Part shown: one piece after another, positions 172 to 3,154 of the stretch
How the letters are laid out: each line of letters starts with the position of its first letter
Numbering within the stretch: the stretch's first letter is position 1
Assembly (NCBI GenBank): GCA_964650355.1
Contig: CAZYTL010000008.1
Location: 89-64,088, forward strand
From: an uncultured Gammaproteobacteria bacterium
Lineage (GTDB): Bacteria; Patescibacteriota; Microgenomatia; CAYXHB01; CAZYTL01
Direction of reading: 5' to 3'
Length of the DNA stretch: 64,000 nt
Translations under genes and position numbers: made by a program
The notes under the pieces: model-generated
The model's database searches: none
Seen by the model: only the letters and a program-made list of their open reading frames with translations
Told to the model about the DNA's origin: nothing

Positions 172-199
172 CTGACTTAATCCGAACTTAAGGTATAAT
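172..199 (+). promoter_or_regulatory. sigma70-like promoter (-35 CTGACT, 16-nt spacer, -10 TATAAT); predicted TSS ~206, the first base of the left inverted repeat
   Basis: ctgact at 172-177 and a perfect tataat at 194-199. The expected TSS, 6-8 nt downstream of the -10, falls on the first base of the 12-bp repeat gagagctgtgac at 206-217. Confidence 0.35.
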
Positions 200-205
200 A
201 ACAGT

Positions 206-356
206 AGAGAGCTGTGACAATCGGTATTTGCTGTTGATTTCACGGCAACTAATTGGATTCTTGACTTTACGCCTAACATAAATAACTTTGTTAGGTATTT
301 AAGTATATAGTTTTTGATTGTTCACTTAGGAAAAGTAGCTTTTAGTCACAGCTCTC
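206..356 (+). ncRNA. putative retron-type msr/msd non-coding RNA flanked by a1/a2 inverted repeats
   Basis: Perfect 12-bp inverted repeat gagagctgtgac (206-217) / gtcacagctctc (345-356). It sits immediately upstream of a retron-type RT, as in retrons. Internal hairpins: ttgctg/cggcaa (~231-251) and a 7-bp stem cctaaca/tgttagg (272-295). An SD aagggg lies after the right repeat, 4 nt before the ATG at 371. Confidence 0.4.
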
Positions 357-370
357 CCTTAAGGGGAATC

Positions 371-1909
371 ATGGATACAATAATACAGAGAAATGATGAA
401 GAACTAGAGAATCTCTTTAGATCCTTAAGCAACAATGATGATATTGCTAACTTGCTTGAGGTAAGCAAAGGAACGTTAATTTACTATGTATACAGACTGA
501 ACAAAAGGCTACAGTACAAAACATATCAAGTTGCTAAACGCAATGGTTCTACCCGGACAATCAGTGCGCCTACGTCCAATATCAAGATATTACAACAGAA
601 ATTTAATTATATTTTTCAGTTAGTATATTCACCGAGAGAATGTGCTTTTGCCTATTCTATGGGTAGGAATGTTATACAAAACGCAAGAGTGCACAAACAG
701 TCACGTGTTCTTCTCAAAATTGACCTTAAAAATTTCTTCGAACAAATACACTTTGGAAGAGTCAGAGGATTCTTTATGTCTGAATACCCCTTTGGTTTTG
801 GAGATAAAGTCGCAACAACACTCGCCAACATTTGCACTTTTGAAGGAAAATTACCCCAGGGAGCACCGACCTCTCCCATCATTTCCAATATGATTTGTTG
901 GGGTTTAGATAGAGATCTCCAGCGTCTGTGTAGAAAACTAAAATGCAAGTACACAAGATATGCTGATGACATAATTATCTCAACAAAGCAGAACGAACTG
1001 CCCCTTGATATCGCAATTAATAATAATGGTGTATGCACAATTGGAGAAAAACTTACTTTCTACTTTGAAAAGCACGATTTTGCGTTAAATTTTGATAAGG
1101 TAAAGATGATCAGATCTAATAAAAGACAGTTAGTAACAGGTTTAGTAACAAACGAAATCGTGAATGTCCCCAGAAAATACATCCATGAATTAAGACTTCA
1201 AATGCGAATATGGGAAAAATACGGTTATAAAGAACTGAGTCAATGTGTCCCAAATCGTACTCATAAAAACCCTAAAAAGCGCATAAAGAACTATAAATGG
1301 ACAATCCAGGGAAGATTGAACTATTTGAAACAAGTGAAAGTTGAGAGTGTTTTAGAAGGGCGGCATTATGATATCTATTTAAAGTTGCAACGTTGGTTTG
1401 ACTATCTAATATTGCGCGACAAATTTAATAGTTTAAAAAGTAGTTCTGCTTATCAAGCTAGAGGCTATGCATTAGAGGATATCTTAAACAAATTATTCGT
1501 CATTAATGGCATTAAAGCAAAAAATCCATTTCGTAGGAGGAAAGGTGCAGATCAAATCGATGGTGCGTTTGTATTAGAAAAAAACAAACACTTTTTAATT
1601 GAGTGTAAATGGATAAAAGATACCGACAAAATTAATAAAGAAATTGATGCTTTTGCCAAAAAACTAGATAGATCCGGAGATGAAATTAGTGGTTTATTCA
1701 TCTCGATAGCAGGGTGGAACGAAAATGCTGTACATAATCTTAAAGAAAGCAAAACTAAAAATATTTTACTGTTAGATGGTAAAGATCTAGAAATAGTACT
1801 AACAAATAGAAAAGTAAGCTTAGATGATTTATTTGCCTGGATGCTAGAAAACTTATCTTTTAAAGCTGAACCTCATATACCAGTTAAAGAATTTTTAAAA
1901 ACCTTTTGA
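371..1909 (+). CDS. retron-type reverse transcriptase fused to a C-terminal Mrr-like PD-(D/E)xK nuclease-fold domain
   Basis: RT motifs read from the translation: Y..AKRNGSTRTISAP, NARVH...LLKIDLKNFFEQI (the NAxxH region), LPQGAPTSPIISN, YTRYADDIIIS (YADD at nt 959-970), and the retron-typical KRQLVTGLVTNE (VTG). The C-terminal ~150 aa carries RGYALEDIL...GADQIDGAFVLEKNKHFLIECKW, a D...(D/E)xK pattern typical of Mrr/restriction-endonuclease-like folds. The longest ORF begins at TTG 314, but that start overlaps the right inverted repeat. ATG 371 has an AAGGGG SD. Confidence 0.8.
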   Translation: MDTIIQRNDEELENLFRSLSNNDDIANLLEVSKGTLIYYVYRLNKRLQYKTYQVAKRNGSTRTISAPTSNIKILQQKFNYIFQLVYSPRECAFAYSMGRNVIQNARVHKQSRVLLKIDLKNFFEQIHFGRVRGFFMSEYPFGFGDKVATTLANICTFEGKLPQGAPTSPIISNMICWGLDRDLQRLCRKLKCKYTRYADDIIISTKQNELPLDIAINNNGVCTIGEKLTFYFEKHDFALNFDKVKMIRSNKRQLVTGLVTNEIVNVPRKYIHELRLQMRIWEKYGYKELSQCVPNRTHKNPKKRIKNYKWTIQGRLNYLKQVKVESVLEGRHYDIYLKLQRWFDYLILRDKFNSLKSSSAYQARGYALEDILNKLFVINGIKAKNPFRRRKGADQIDGAFVLEKNKHFLIECKWIKDTDKINKEIDAFAKKLDRSGDEISGLFISIAGWNENAVHNLKESKTKNILLLDGKDLEIVLTNRKVSLDDLFAWMLENLSFKAEPHIPVKEFLKTF

Positions 1910-2013: not shown

Positions 2014-2275
2014 ATGAGATTGAATGTAATATTTATTCGTTATGTTTATTTAGGTAAACAGCATGGAAGCTATAAAATCGGTGAATCGAAAAACCCAAGT
2101 CGACGTAGAGAAGATAACACTTTTAGGGCCAGAGCCTTTTAAGTTAATCCATGAGATTAAAACAGATGTTATGAATGGAGTTGAGAAGTACTGGCATGAG
2201 AGGTTTAAATCAAAACACAAAAGAGGTGAATGGTTTAATTTATCTAGCACCGACGTTAAGAGTTTTAAGAGGTAG
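2014..2275 (+). pseudogene. T5orf172 / GIY-YIG-like domain gene interrupted by a +1 frameshift near nt 2104
   Basis: Frame 1 (2014-2142) reads MRLNVIFIRYVYLGKQHGSYKIGESKNPSRR..., which matches the YVY...YKIG(x)T...RR N-terminal motif. Frame 2 (2063-2275) reads ...VEKITLLGPEPFKLIHEIKTDVMNGVEKYWHERFKSKHKRGEWFNLS, which matches the ...E..H..F...R..GEWF C-terminal signature. Skipping one nucleotide at ~2104 joins them into an ~87-aa intact domain. Confidence 0.6.
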
Positions 2276-2347: not shown

Positions 2348-3154
2348 ATGGGCCGAAGGAGTAGTAAGGCAAAAAAAGTTCTCTTTGTTGGGGCAATGGA
2401 AACAGAACTCCGTCCCTTATTGAAAAGTTTGAAGGCAACAGAAAGCAAGAAACTTATTAACATTTACCCTCTTTATAAAGCACGACACCAAACGGCGGAT
2501 ATATTTGTAGTGGAAACATTTGTAGGAGAAGCTAATGCATCAATCGCGGGTTTTGAAGCGATAAGAGAAGTAAATCCTGATTATGTAATCAAATTTGGAG
2601 CAGTTGGGGGAAGTTATCCTGAAAGCAAAGCCAGGGAGATTATCATTCCACTTGGTTTTTTCCATAGAACAGGATGGATTACTAAAGATCAAAAAACTCA
2701 TATACCAACGGCAGATGCTTCTAAATGGGACTCCATTTACGGTGAAAAAGATTACCAAATTCAAGAAAGTAGACACAATTTAGGCGGCATGTCATATTAT
2801 TTTTCAGTTCCCGAACGTTTACAAAGATTTTGTGAGAATACTCTTCGTAAACATAAGATGAAATACGTTACCGCTTATGTGGGGGGCGGTGATATGTGGA
2901 TGACCAATCAACAGGTGTTAAATAATGTTGCGGCAACGATGCTGCCCGCTTCAGCTACACACAGGCGATTTGTATCTGATATGGAGTCATACTCACTTGC
3001 TCATGCCTGTTACCTGACAAAGAAGCCATTTATCGGATGCTATGTGGTAGCAAGTAACGACTACATTAACGAGCTCTACAACCCGGAACTGGTACCGGCT
3101 CAAATGGAGCGGTTGGTGCCATACGCTCTTGAACTCATAAAGACTTTCGGTTAA
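2348..3154 (+). CDS. PNP_UDP_1 family nucleosidase/phosphorylase (MTA/SAH-nucleosidase-like)
   Basis: Motifs VLFVGAMETEL (the GAMEEE-type N-terminus), GEANASIAGFEAIREVNPDYVIKFGAVGGS, YVGGGDMWMTNQ and SDMESYSLAHAC align with Pfs/MtnN active-site segments. It has a ~60-aa insertion relative to the canonical 230-aa enzyme. Confidence 0.7.
   Translation: MGRRSSKAKKVLFVGAMETELRPLLKSLKATESKKLINIYPLYKARHQTADIFVVETFVGEANASIAGFEAIREVNPDYVIKFGAVGGSYPESKAREIIIPLGFFHRTGWITKDQKTHIPTADASKWDSIYGEKDYQIQESRHNLGGMSYYFSVPERLQRFCENTLRKHKMKYVTAYVGGGDMWMTNQQVLNNVAATMLPASATHRRFVSDMESYSLAHACYLTKKPFIGCYVVASNDYINELYNPELVPAQMERLVPYALELIKTFG

What the first reader, a model, noticed from the sequence alone, without database searches (positions are those of the whole stretch)
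206..370. Retron-style non-coding RNA architecture upstream of the RT (a1/a2 repeats, internal hairpins, TSS at a1)
The 12-bp perfect inverted repeat gagagctgtgac (206-217) / gtcacagctctc (345-356) is 127 nt apart. The right copy sits 15 nt upstream of a strong SD (AAGGGG) and the ATG at 371. A -35/-10 promoter (172-199, perfect TATAAT) would start transcription exactly at the left repeat. Between the repeats are a 6-bp hairpin (ttgctg...cggcaa, ~231-251) and a 7-bp-stem hairpin with a 10-nt loop (272-295), consistent with msr and msd stem-loops. In retrons the a1/a2 duplex positions the priming 2'-OH G just 3' of a1.
Basis: seen in the sequence. Interest (0 to 1): 0.75.

Follow-up and report, generated by a model that had tools for sequence, protein, structure and literature searches.

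The report
Retron RNA gene before RT-nuclease fusion
The 150-base structured stretch at 207-356 is very probably the template RNA gene of a retron, a bacterial anti-phage system that makes small DNA copies. Here the reverse transcriptase is fused to a restriction-enzyme-like nuclease, a combination the retron papers I read do not list.

Summary
A perfect 12-bp inverted repeat (207-218 / 345-356, 126 nt apart) closes a structured region just upstream of a 512-aa ORF, behind a CTGACT-16-TATAAT promoter.

The interpretation as a retron msr-msd RNA is supported.
- The ORF is a retron-type RT: PADLOC types XII, XI and I-C at 1e-114 to 1e-90, with NAxxH, YADD and VTG invariant in 42 homologues. Its best structural match is retron Eco2.
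- All 17 distinct full-length homologous loci carry an equivalent repeat (9-15 bp, 115-146 nt apart, ending 5-47 nt before the start). The arm sequences differ, so all 11 modelled pairs covary.
- The first hairpin covaries in a structure-blind alignment.
- A perfect TATAAT lies 4-8 nt before the left arm in 10 of 17 loci.

The C-terminal domain is a PD-(D/E)xK (Mrr-like) nuclease, not the Toprim, protease or TIR domains described for this RT clade. A covariance model of the RNA also hits directly upstream of type I-C, XI, XII and RT-Schlafen fusions.

The priming G, msDNA synthesis and defence activity are untested.

Verdict: a genuine retron RNA and a new effector variant of a known kind. Interest is moderate.

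The parts
172..199 (+). Sigma-70-type promoter: -35 CTGACT (172-177), 16-nt spacer, -10 TATAAT (194-199). The predicted start is about 205-207, at the 5' edge of a1.
   Evidence: 10 of 12 matches. A perfect TATAAT lies 4-8 nt upstream of a1 in 10 of 17 homologous loci, including high-GC ones.
207..218 (+). a1, the 5' arm of the terminal inverted repeat (GAGAGCTGTGAC).
   Evidence: All 11 modelled pairs show compensatory changes across 15 family members.
219..227 (+). Single-stranded linker AATCGGTAT holding the favoured candidate priming G (G223, or G224). G216 inside a1 is the alternative.
   Evidence: Inference. G223 aligns with the G of a 5' (A)ATTG motif seen widely across the clade. It lies 4 nt before the hairpin, as branch G15 does in Eco2 (PMC12405507). 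Not resolved.
228..248 (+). msr stem-loop H1: 228-234 pairs with 242-248; the loop is TGATTTC (235-241).
   Evidence: RNAalifold on a plain MAFFT alignment gave 6 pairs, 5 of them with double changes. In the model-fitted alignment 5 of 7 pairs covary and 94% of cells are paired. G230 and G236 are invariant.
265..272 (+). Conserved motif CTTTACGC at the inferred msr/msd boundary. It is the 5' half of the msd-closing helices (264-268 with 332-336; 272-276 with 326-330).
   Evidence: Conserved columns. RNAalifold on the 5 closest relatives. Helices 3 and 4 (4 of 6 and 3 of 4 pairs covary).
272..330 (+). Variable msd body. In this window it forms two hairpins (272-278/289-295 and about 300-329) or one closed multiloop. 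In distant relatives it is a single long hairpin.
   Evidence: The sequence is not conserved but the flanks are.
329..336 (+). Conserved motif GGAAAAGT, the 3' half of the msd-closing helices.
345..356 (+). a2, the 3' arm of the inverted repeat (GTCACAGCTCTC).
357..370 (+). Leader of the RT gene: a C-run (357-359) that can pair with the G-run of the Shine-Dalgarno AAGGGG (360-365).
   Evidence: three pairs: C357-G366, C358-G365, U359-G364. The same C-run / G-run arrangement is present in L162, L164 and L166. Function not tested.
371..1909 (+). Single 512-aa protein. The retron RT spans about aa 1-330 (NARVH 104-108; YADD 197-200 = nt 959-970; VTG 255-257). A helical linker follows. The C-terminal PD-(D/E)xK nuclease domain spans about aa 360-512 (nt 1448-1906) with D397, E411 and K413.
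   Evidence: Pfam RVT_1 4.6e-20. PADLOC RT-TIR_XII 1.5e-114, RT-Protease_XI 9e-110, RT-Toprim_I-C 4e-93, matching the RT part only. Motif columns. AlphaFold2 model pLDDT 89.5, best PDB match retron Eco2, E = 1e-29. C-terminal profile against PDB: Cdn1 nuclease domain, E = 1e-5. C-terminal model pLDDT 92.5, best folds MspJI, Nt.BspD6I, Card1, Can2. Mrr_cat passes Pfam's cut-off in homologues.

Best explanation
Positions 207-356 are the msr-msd non-coding RNA gene of a single-protein retron.

Proposed mechanism, with each step marked:
1. Transcription from the promoter at 172-199 starts at the edge of a1 and runs through the RNA into the RT gene. This is inferred from the conserved -10 box.
2. 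The RNA folds so that a1 (207-218) pairs with a2 (345-356). One msr stem-loop (228-248) and a variable msd hairpin region (about 264-344) lie inside. The fold is shown by covariation.
3. The RT encoded at 371-1909 recognises the msr hairpin. It primes on the 2'-OH of a G near the inner end of a1 (candidate G223, alternative G216). It copies the msd template from about 344 back towards the conserved CUUUACGC (265-272), giving a branched msDNA of roughly 70-85 nt. This is inferred by analogy with retrons generally and with Eco2.
4. The msDNA-RNA hybrid stays bound to the protein and keeps the fused C-terminal PD-(D/E)xK nuclease inactive. A phage factor that damages or displaces the msDNA then releases the nuclease, which cuts nucleic acid and aborts the infection. 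This is inferred from Eco2, where msDNA cages the fused TOPRIM nuclease until phage DenB degrades it.
For: Retron RT identity:
- PADLOC retron profiles at 1e-114 to 1e-90.
- NAxxH, YADD and VTG invariant in 42 homologues.
- Best PDB fold match is retron Eco2 over about 540 aligned columns, then Ec86, Eco7, Ec78, Ec83 and Eco8.

RNA:
- 16 of 17 distinct full-length homologous loci have a perfect 9-15 bp inverted repeat, 115-146 nt apart, ending 5-47 nt before the start. The 17th has 10 bp including one G.U. In 13 loci no shuffle reaches the observed arm; in three loci with 9-bp arms 1, 2 and 9 of 100 do.
- The arms differ in sequence. On 15 members 91% of cells pair, against 35-49% when the partners are slid, and 23 of 28 pairs show double changes.
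- H1 covaries in a structure-blind alignment.
- TATAAT lies 4-8 nt before a1 in 10 of 17 loci.
- Model R2 gives 38 hits in about 1 Mb of fetched loci. All are on the RT strand and directly upstream of the RT ORF. They include PADLOC/Pfam-typed I-C, XI and XII retrons.
- The window has one hit on the + strand (133.6 bits), against 17.3 bits on the - strand.

Stand-alone unit: the neighbours of the gene differ between loci.

Nuclease domain.

Eco2 mechanism and RNA layout: PMC12916289 and PMC12405507.
Against: - No experimental data bear on this locus: no msDNA, no mapped transcription start, no phage assay.
- Rfam has no match.
- No G is positionally invariant next to a1, so the defining branch point is not located.
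- The model-fitted alignment leans towards its own structure (caveat).
- The lysine of the E-x-K motif is R in 16 of 42 homologues, so nuclease chemistry across the family is not assured.
- The window protein itself reaches only E = 0.049 to Mrr_cat_2.
- The Eco2 msr hairpin has a 3-nt loop, unlike the 7-nt loop here. The mechanistic analogy is therefore at the level of the clade, not close homology.
- Two family members (L171, L173) have the arms but were missed by the model.
Confidence: 0.85

Rival explanations
1. The structure is a cis-regulatory 5' leader (attenuator, thermosensor or protein-binding operator) that controls translation of the RT-nuclease gene. It is never reverse transcribed.
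For: It lies in the 5' UTR, 14 nt from the start. A C-run after a2 can pair with the Shine-Dalgarno G-run. No msDNA evidence exists.
Against: The same RNA family sits upstream of type I-C retrons, the type whose studied member Eco2 has an RNA that is experimentally a template (PMC12916289). The layout matches retron RNAs: terminal inverted repeat, one conserved hairpin, and a middle hairpin with variable sequence and conserved flanks. A pure leader would not need a long variable insert or 12-18 bp terminal arms.
Confidence: 0.05
2. The RNA is a template or guide for the RT but works in a non-retron way, as in DRT2 or DRT9-type defence RTs: cDNA made without a 2'-5' branch, for example concatemeric or homopolymeric DNA.
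For: The branch G could not be located. DRT9 and DRT2 RT-ncRNA complexes appear among the more distant fold matches.
Against: The RT scores far higher against retron profiles and structures (E = 1e-114; Eco2 E = 1e-29) than against DRT structures (about 1e-9). It carries the retron-specific NAxxH and VTG motifs. The a1/a2 architecture is the retron hallmark.
Confidence: 0.06
3. The inverted repeat is a chance match, or the ends of a small mobile element or a recombination site, unrelated to the RT.
For: Some homologous loci lie next to recombinases or transposases.
Against: The repeat keeps its position relative to the start codon while its sequence changes in a compensatory way in 17 loci from unrelated contexts. 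Shuffles do not reach the observed length. The interior has conserved motifs and a covarying hairpin.
Confidence: 0.01

Closest known systems
Retron-Eco2 (Ec67), type I-C1: a single RT-TOPRIM fusion protein plus msr-msd RNA
   Same: - One gene encodes a retron RT fused at its C-terminus to a nuclease.
- It is the best structural match of the whole predicted protein.
- The RNA is directly upstream, with a1/a2 arms, a single msr stem-loop and an msd hairpin (PMC12405507).
- The RNA model built here hits upstream of two PADLOC-typed I-C loci, L040 and L097.
   Different: - The effector is a PD-(D/E)xK (Mrr-like) domain, not TOPRIM.
- Sequence identity is about 23%.
- The msr loop is 7 nt (UGAUUUC), against 3 nt in Eco2.
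- Trimer formation, caging by msDNA, the DenB trigger and tRNA cleavage are known only for Eco2.
Type XI (RT-trypsin-like protease) and type XII (RT-TIR) retrons, RT clade 8 of Mestre et al. 2020
   Same: - These are the highest-scoring RT profiles.
- They are single-gene systems.
- The same RNA family is detected upstream of loci that Pfam/PADLOC type as XI (L008, L018, L027, L086, L092, L111) and XII (L024, L035, the latter two weakly).
   Different: - The profile matches stop at the end of the RT part. No protease or TIR domain is present.
- Mestre et al. list the RNA of XI and XII as not determined (PMC7736814).
[quoted passage not shown]
   Same: - They are clade-8 RTs without a protease.
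- Their candidate msr/msd-like RNAs with a1/a2 were found de novo upstream of the RT.
   Different: - Those lineages use separate accessory genes (WYL, DnaB_C), not a fused nuclease.
- The words nuclease and Mrr do not occur in that text.
- The neighbours of the gene family studied here are not conserved.
PD-(D/E)xK nuclease domains of Mrr/MspJI-type restriction enzymes and of CARF effectors (Card1, Can2, Cdn1)
   Same: - Fold and the D...E-x-K motif of the C-terminal domain.
- Like the CARF effectors, it is a nuclease module attached to a sensor module.
   Different: - The regulatory partner here is an RT with its RNA/DNA product, not a cyclic-oligoadenylate sensor or a modified-DNA reader.
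- Similarity is remote (E = 1e-5 by profile, about 1e-3 by fold).

Membership tests
Retron (RT + msr-msd RNA + effector) | Retron-type reverse transcriptase with YADD plus the retron-specific NAxxH and VTG motifs | tested here: met
   PADLOC retron RT profiles at 1e-114 to 1e-90. N104/H108, Y197/D199/D200 and V255-T256-G257 are invariant in 42 homologues. Best folds are retron RTs.
Retron (RT + msr-msd RNA + effector) | Non-coding RNA gene adjacent to the RT on the same strand, bounded by inverted repeats a1/a2 | tested here: met
   207-218 / 345-356, 14 nt before the ATG. Conserved in position and compensatory in 17 loci.
Retron (RT + msr-msd RNA + effector) | Internal msr stem-loop(s) and an msd hairpin | tested here: met
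   H1 covaries in a structure-blind alignment. The msd closing helices covary in the fitted alignment. The msd body is variable and hairpin-forming.
Retron (RT + msr-msd RNA + effector) | Conserved branching G at the inner end of a1 | tested here: inconclusive
   No invariant G lies next to a1. The candidates are G216 and G223/G224. G230 is invariant but base-paired in H1.
Retron (RT + msr-msd RNA + effector) | Production of 2'-5' branched msDNA | not testable with these tools
   Needs expression and nucleic-acid analysis.
Retron (RT + msr-msd RNA + effector) | Associated effector protein or fused effector domain | tested here: met
   The C-terminal approx. 150 aa has a PD-(D/E)xK fold and motif. 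It is fused in at least 120 clusters of full-length homologues.
Retron type I-C | TOPRIM domain fused to the RT C-terminus | tested here: not met
   The RT-Toprim_I-C profiles match only aa 12-325. Pfam finds no Toprim. The C-terminal fold is PD-(D/E)xK.
Retron type XI | Trypsin-like serine protease fused to the RT C-terminus | tested here: not met
   No Trypsin family hit, whereas bona fide XI loci give Trypsin_2 at 1e-12 to 1e-18.
Retron type XII | TIR domain fused to the RT C-terminus | tested here: not met
   The RT-TIR_XII profile matches aa 8-326 only. No TIR hit, whereas L024 and L035 give TIR_2.
Rfam RNA families (including any retron msr model it holds) | Covariance-model match at or near the gathering score | tested here: not met
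   Nothing at 207-356 up to E = 10 in a scan of 1-2400.
Clade-8 retron RNA family (defined here by model R2) | Significant match to a model that also hits I-C, XI and XII loci upstream of their RTs | tested here: met
   Window 133.6 bits, but it is a training sequence. Non-training hits include L012, L013, L004, L040, L085, L083, L095, L124, L090 and L089 at E = 1e-5 to 1e-9.

The most novel reading that the evidence does not exclude
RT clade 8 is a family of single-protein retrons built on one shared msr-msd RNA scaffold with interchangeable C-terminal effectors. The RT-PD-(D/E)xK (Mrr-like) fusion in this window would be a so far unclassified effector type of that family, with RT-Schlafen/AlbA_2 as another. 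The same RNA model would also supply the missing RNA for canonical type XI and XII retrons.
Probability: 0.45. Interest if true: 0.55.

Novelty: new variant of a known kind. Interest (0 to 1): 0.45.

Why it matters
Single-protein retrons are the smallest retron defence systems and attractive chassis for in-cell DNA production and genome editing.

- A well-delimited RNA with a conserved promoter, paired with an RT fused to a different nuclease class, gives a new minimal system. It can test whether caging of a fused effector by msDNA, shown for Eco2, is general.
- The RNA model built here also appears to detect the RNA gene of type XI and XII retrons, which the 2020 classification left undetermined. 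That would help annotate such systems.

The basic finding, a retron RNA upstream of a retron RT, is what a specialist would expect.

Tried and rejected
- Rfam scan of 1-2400 at E up to 10: no relevant match.
- Genome and metagenome scans with the full-length profile returned mostly other retron types. Only about 8 full-length family loci came from them, so most loci were fetched one by one.
- Viral contigs searched with the nuclease-domain profile: no relative.
- MAFFT could not put the non-homologous arms in register. The arms were therefore tested independently of alignment and then through covariance models.
- L171 and L173 have clear arms but were not recovered by model R2 with default filters.
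- I tried to fetch the E. coli Eco2 (Ec67) locus, to carry its mapped G15 and termination site onto this RNA.
- I looked for 'two opposing G' at the inner end of a1/a2. They are present in several XI, I-C and Schlafen-type loci (5'-AATT-G facing G-AATT-3') but not in the window's own subclade.
- An upstream TTG start at 314 (531-aa ORF) was rejected. It would overlap a2, and the homologues and the Shine-Dalgarno support ATG 371.
- The annotated starts of P0008 and P0009 were likewise judged about 30 aa too long.

Full report
**1. The observation**

The sequence shows GAGAGCTGTGAC at 207-218 and its exact complement GTCACAGCTCTC at 345-356, with 126 nt between them.
- In 100 shuffles of the upstream 260 nt, the longest repeat at comparable spacing was 10 (mean 6.7). 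A coding control gave 7.
- The scan finds CTGACT-16-TATAAT at 172-199, the only promoter-like site near the element.
- AAGGGG lies at 360-365 and the ATG at 371.
- The RNA fold of 200-370 closes on the 12-bp stem at -47.7 kcal/mol, z = -3.77.
The first is really 228-234/242-248 with loop TGATTTC.
- A further hairpin lies at about 300-329.

**2. The gene downstream**

ORF 371-1909 (512 aa) has a Pfam RVT_1 domain. Its best PADLOC matches are the single-gene retron RTs.
- RT-TIR_XII scores 1.5e-114, RT-Protease_XI 9e-110 and RT-Toprim_I-C 4e-93. For XII and I-C the match ends near residue 326; the XI profiles run on to 416-428, still short of their protease part.
- In an alignment of 42 homologues the retron signatures N104-A-x-x-H108, Y197-A-D-D200 and V255-T-G257 are invariant.
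- An AlphaFold2 model (pLDDT 89.5) matches retron Eco2 (Ec67) best, at E = 1e-29 over about 540 columns. Ec86, Eco7, Ec78, Ec83 and Eco8 follow.

**3. The C-terminal domain**

Residues about 360-512 are not Toprim, protease or TIR.
- A profile of this part matches the PD-(D/E)xK nuclease domain of the CARF nuclease Cdn1 (8z4i) at E = 1e-5.
- Pfam Mrr_cat passes its cut-off in homologues (P0016 25.6 bits, P0144, P0185, P0201). The window protein itself gives only Mrr_cat_2 at E = 0.049.
- A separate model of the domain (pLDDT 92.5) finds MspJI, Nt.BspD6I, Card1, Cap4, Cdn1, Can2 and EndoMS as best folds. All are PD-(D/E)xK, but the E-values are modest (7e-4 to 0.1).
- D397 and E411 are invariant. 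K413 is K in 26 and R in 16 of 42 sequences.
- The full-length architecture is common in metagenomes. The best 120 clusters in the protein search are all 444-547 aa and cover 86-100% of the query.
- Sources name them only as reverse transcriptases.

**4. Conservation of the RNA**

I collected 17 distinct loci that encode full-length relatives at 36-66% identity.
- Sixteen have a perfect inverted repeat of 9-15 bp, 115-146 nt apart, ending 5-47 nt before the start codon. The seventeenth (L164) has 10 bp with one G.U.
- For two loci the repeat only appeared once the over-long annotated starts were corrected.
- The arm sequences are unrelated across the family. Examples are AAGGGGACTATGTT, GGGCACTTGTAGG, AGACATACTTGCATT and GAGGTGTCCGCG. 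The pairing is therefore maintained by compensatory change.
- A plain MAFFT alignment with RNAalifold, blind to my hypothesis, recovered hairpin H1 with 5 of 6 pairs showing double changes.
- RNAalifold on the five closest relatives added two helices that close the msd region, 264-268/332-336 and 272-275/327-330.
- I built covariance models in two rounds and aligned 15 family members to the second.
- In that alignment 91.2% of cells pair, against 35-49% with slid partners. Twenty-three of 28 pairs have double changes, and a1/a2 covaries at 11 of 11 pairs.
- That alignment is fitted to the model, so I rest the case mainly on the tests that do not depend on alignment.
- The interior shows conserved CTTTACGC (265-272) and GGAAAAGT (329-336) flanking a segment of variable sequence that forms hairpins. 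This is the usual look of an msd.

**5. The promoter**

A perfect TATAAT lies 4-8 nt upstream of a1 in 10 of 17 loci, including loci with more than 50% G+C. Close relatives also share a TTGGACA -35.

**6. Reach of the RNA family**

Model R2 was searched over all fetched loci, about 1 Mb on both strands. It gave 38 hits at E < 0.1, every one on the RT strand and directly upstream of the RT ORF. Typing the ORFs showed four groups:
- RT-trypsin fusions, type XI: L008, L018, L027, L086, L092, L111.
- RT-Toprim fusions, type I-C: L040, L097.
- RT-TIR fusions, type XII: L024 and L035. These two hits are weak.
- RT-Schlafen/AlbA_2 fusions (L011, L038), plus short RT-only proteins.

All of these hits have 8-18 bp arms (G.U allowed); except L035 (84 nt) they lie 113-146 nt apart. 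The RNA is therefore shared across RT clade 8.

Mestre et al. 2020 list an RNA family for I-C but 'nd' for XI and XII, and they name only Toprim, TIR and protease as fused domains in clade 8 (PMC7736814). A 2026 preprint reports de novo RNAs for two protease-less XI-like lineages that have separate WYL or DnaB_C genes, and it does not mention a nuclease fusion. My literature searches found no description of an RT-Mrr retron. The library searched is incomplete, so this is not proof of novelty.

**7. Mechanism**

*Shown here:* the RT type, the RNA fold, the conserved promoter position, the fused nuclease fold, and the stand-alone nature of the gene. The neighbours of the gene differ between loci and include recombinases, a transposase, GmrSD and phage-like genes.

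*Inferred:* the RT primes on a G near a1 and copies about 344 back to about 265-272. The product stays bound and restrains the nuclease until a phage factor attacks it. This rests on Eco2, where msDNA cages the TOPRIM domains of a trimer, phage DenB degrades the msDNA, and the freed nuclease cuts tRNA (PMC12916289, PMC12405507).

*The priming G is open.*
- G223 aligns with the G of a clade-wide (A)ATTG motif. It lies 4 nt before H1, the same spacing as G15 before the stem-loop in Eco2.
- G216 is the last G inside a1.
- In several other clade-8 loci 5'-AATT-G faces G-AATT-3', the classic opposing Gs. The window's subclade lacks the 3' partner.

**8. Rivals**

- A purely regulatory leader or a DRT-like non-branching template cannot be excluded without experiments. 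Both fit the evidence less well.
- Chance, or the ends of a mobile element, are excluded by the compensatory conservation.

**9. Verdict**

The element is a retron msr-msd gene. The system is a variant of the clade-8 single-protein retrons with a PD-(D/E)xK effector. Interest is moderate (0.45): the kind is known and the mechanism is expected, but the effector class and the clade-wide RNA model are useful additions.

Noticed in passing
L008, L018, L027, L086, L092, L111 (type XI); L024, L035 (type XII); L040, L097 (type I-C); hit coordinates: The RNA model built from the RT-Mrr family hits directly upstream of RT-protease and RT-TIR retrons. Mestre et al. 2020 list the RNA of these two types as not determined. 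All hits have 8-18 bp terminal arms, all but L035 (84 nt) spaced 113-146 nt.
   Followed up: partly
L011:2974-4557 and L038:303-2033: Retron-type RTs fused to a C-terminal Schlafen/AlbA_2 domain (Pfam 2e-12 and 3e-19), each preceded by the same RNA family. This is another fused effector not in the 13-type scheme as I read it.
   Followed up: partly
Proteins P0123, P0124, P0138 and many others of about 300-320 aa: The same nuclease domain (35-41% identical to window aa 352-511) also occurs at the C-terminus of RT-less proteins of about 310 aa. Their approx. 145-aa N-terminal part has no Pfam match. In all, 1913 representatives match the domain at E < 1e-10.
   Followed up: partly
window 2044-2275: A T5orf172/MUG113 (GIY-YIG-like) gene appears split by a frameshift. 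The N-terminal half (VYLGKQHGSYKIGESKNP...) reads in one frame to a stop near 2140. The C-terminal half is the 70-aa ORF 2063-2275. The same arrangement is in the identical contig L161.
   Followed up: no
window 357-366; also L162, L164, L166 just after a2: A C-run immediately after a2 can pair with the G-run of the Shine-Dalgarno sequence (CCC...GGG(G)). It is conserved in the closest relatives and could couple RNA folding or processing to translation of the RT.
   Followed up: no
window aa 413 (nt 1607-1609) and the alignment A1 column: The lysine of the nuclease E-x-K motif is arginine in 16 of 42 family members, while D397 and E411 are invariant. This is unusual for PD-(D/E)xK enzymes.
   Followed up: no
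L170 (P0008) and L171 (P0009): The deposited gene calls start about 30 codons too early and run through the RNA gene. The likely true starts are L170:3113 and L171:2120.
   Followed up: yes
L004, L012, L013 (Nostoc and relatives): These are RT-only proteins of 353-360 aa from the same clade. The RNA hit lies 105-111 nt upstream of the ORF instead of 5-50 nt. An effector may be encoded separately.
   Followed up: no
window 186-202 and 2327-2343: A 17-nt direct repeat, 82% identical (ACTTAAGGTATAATAAC / ACTGAAGGTATTATTAC). The second copy sits just before the PNP_UDP_1 gene (2348-3154), so the two may be similar -10 regions.
   Followed up: no
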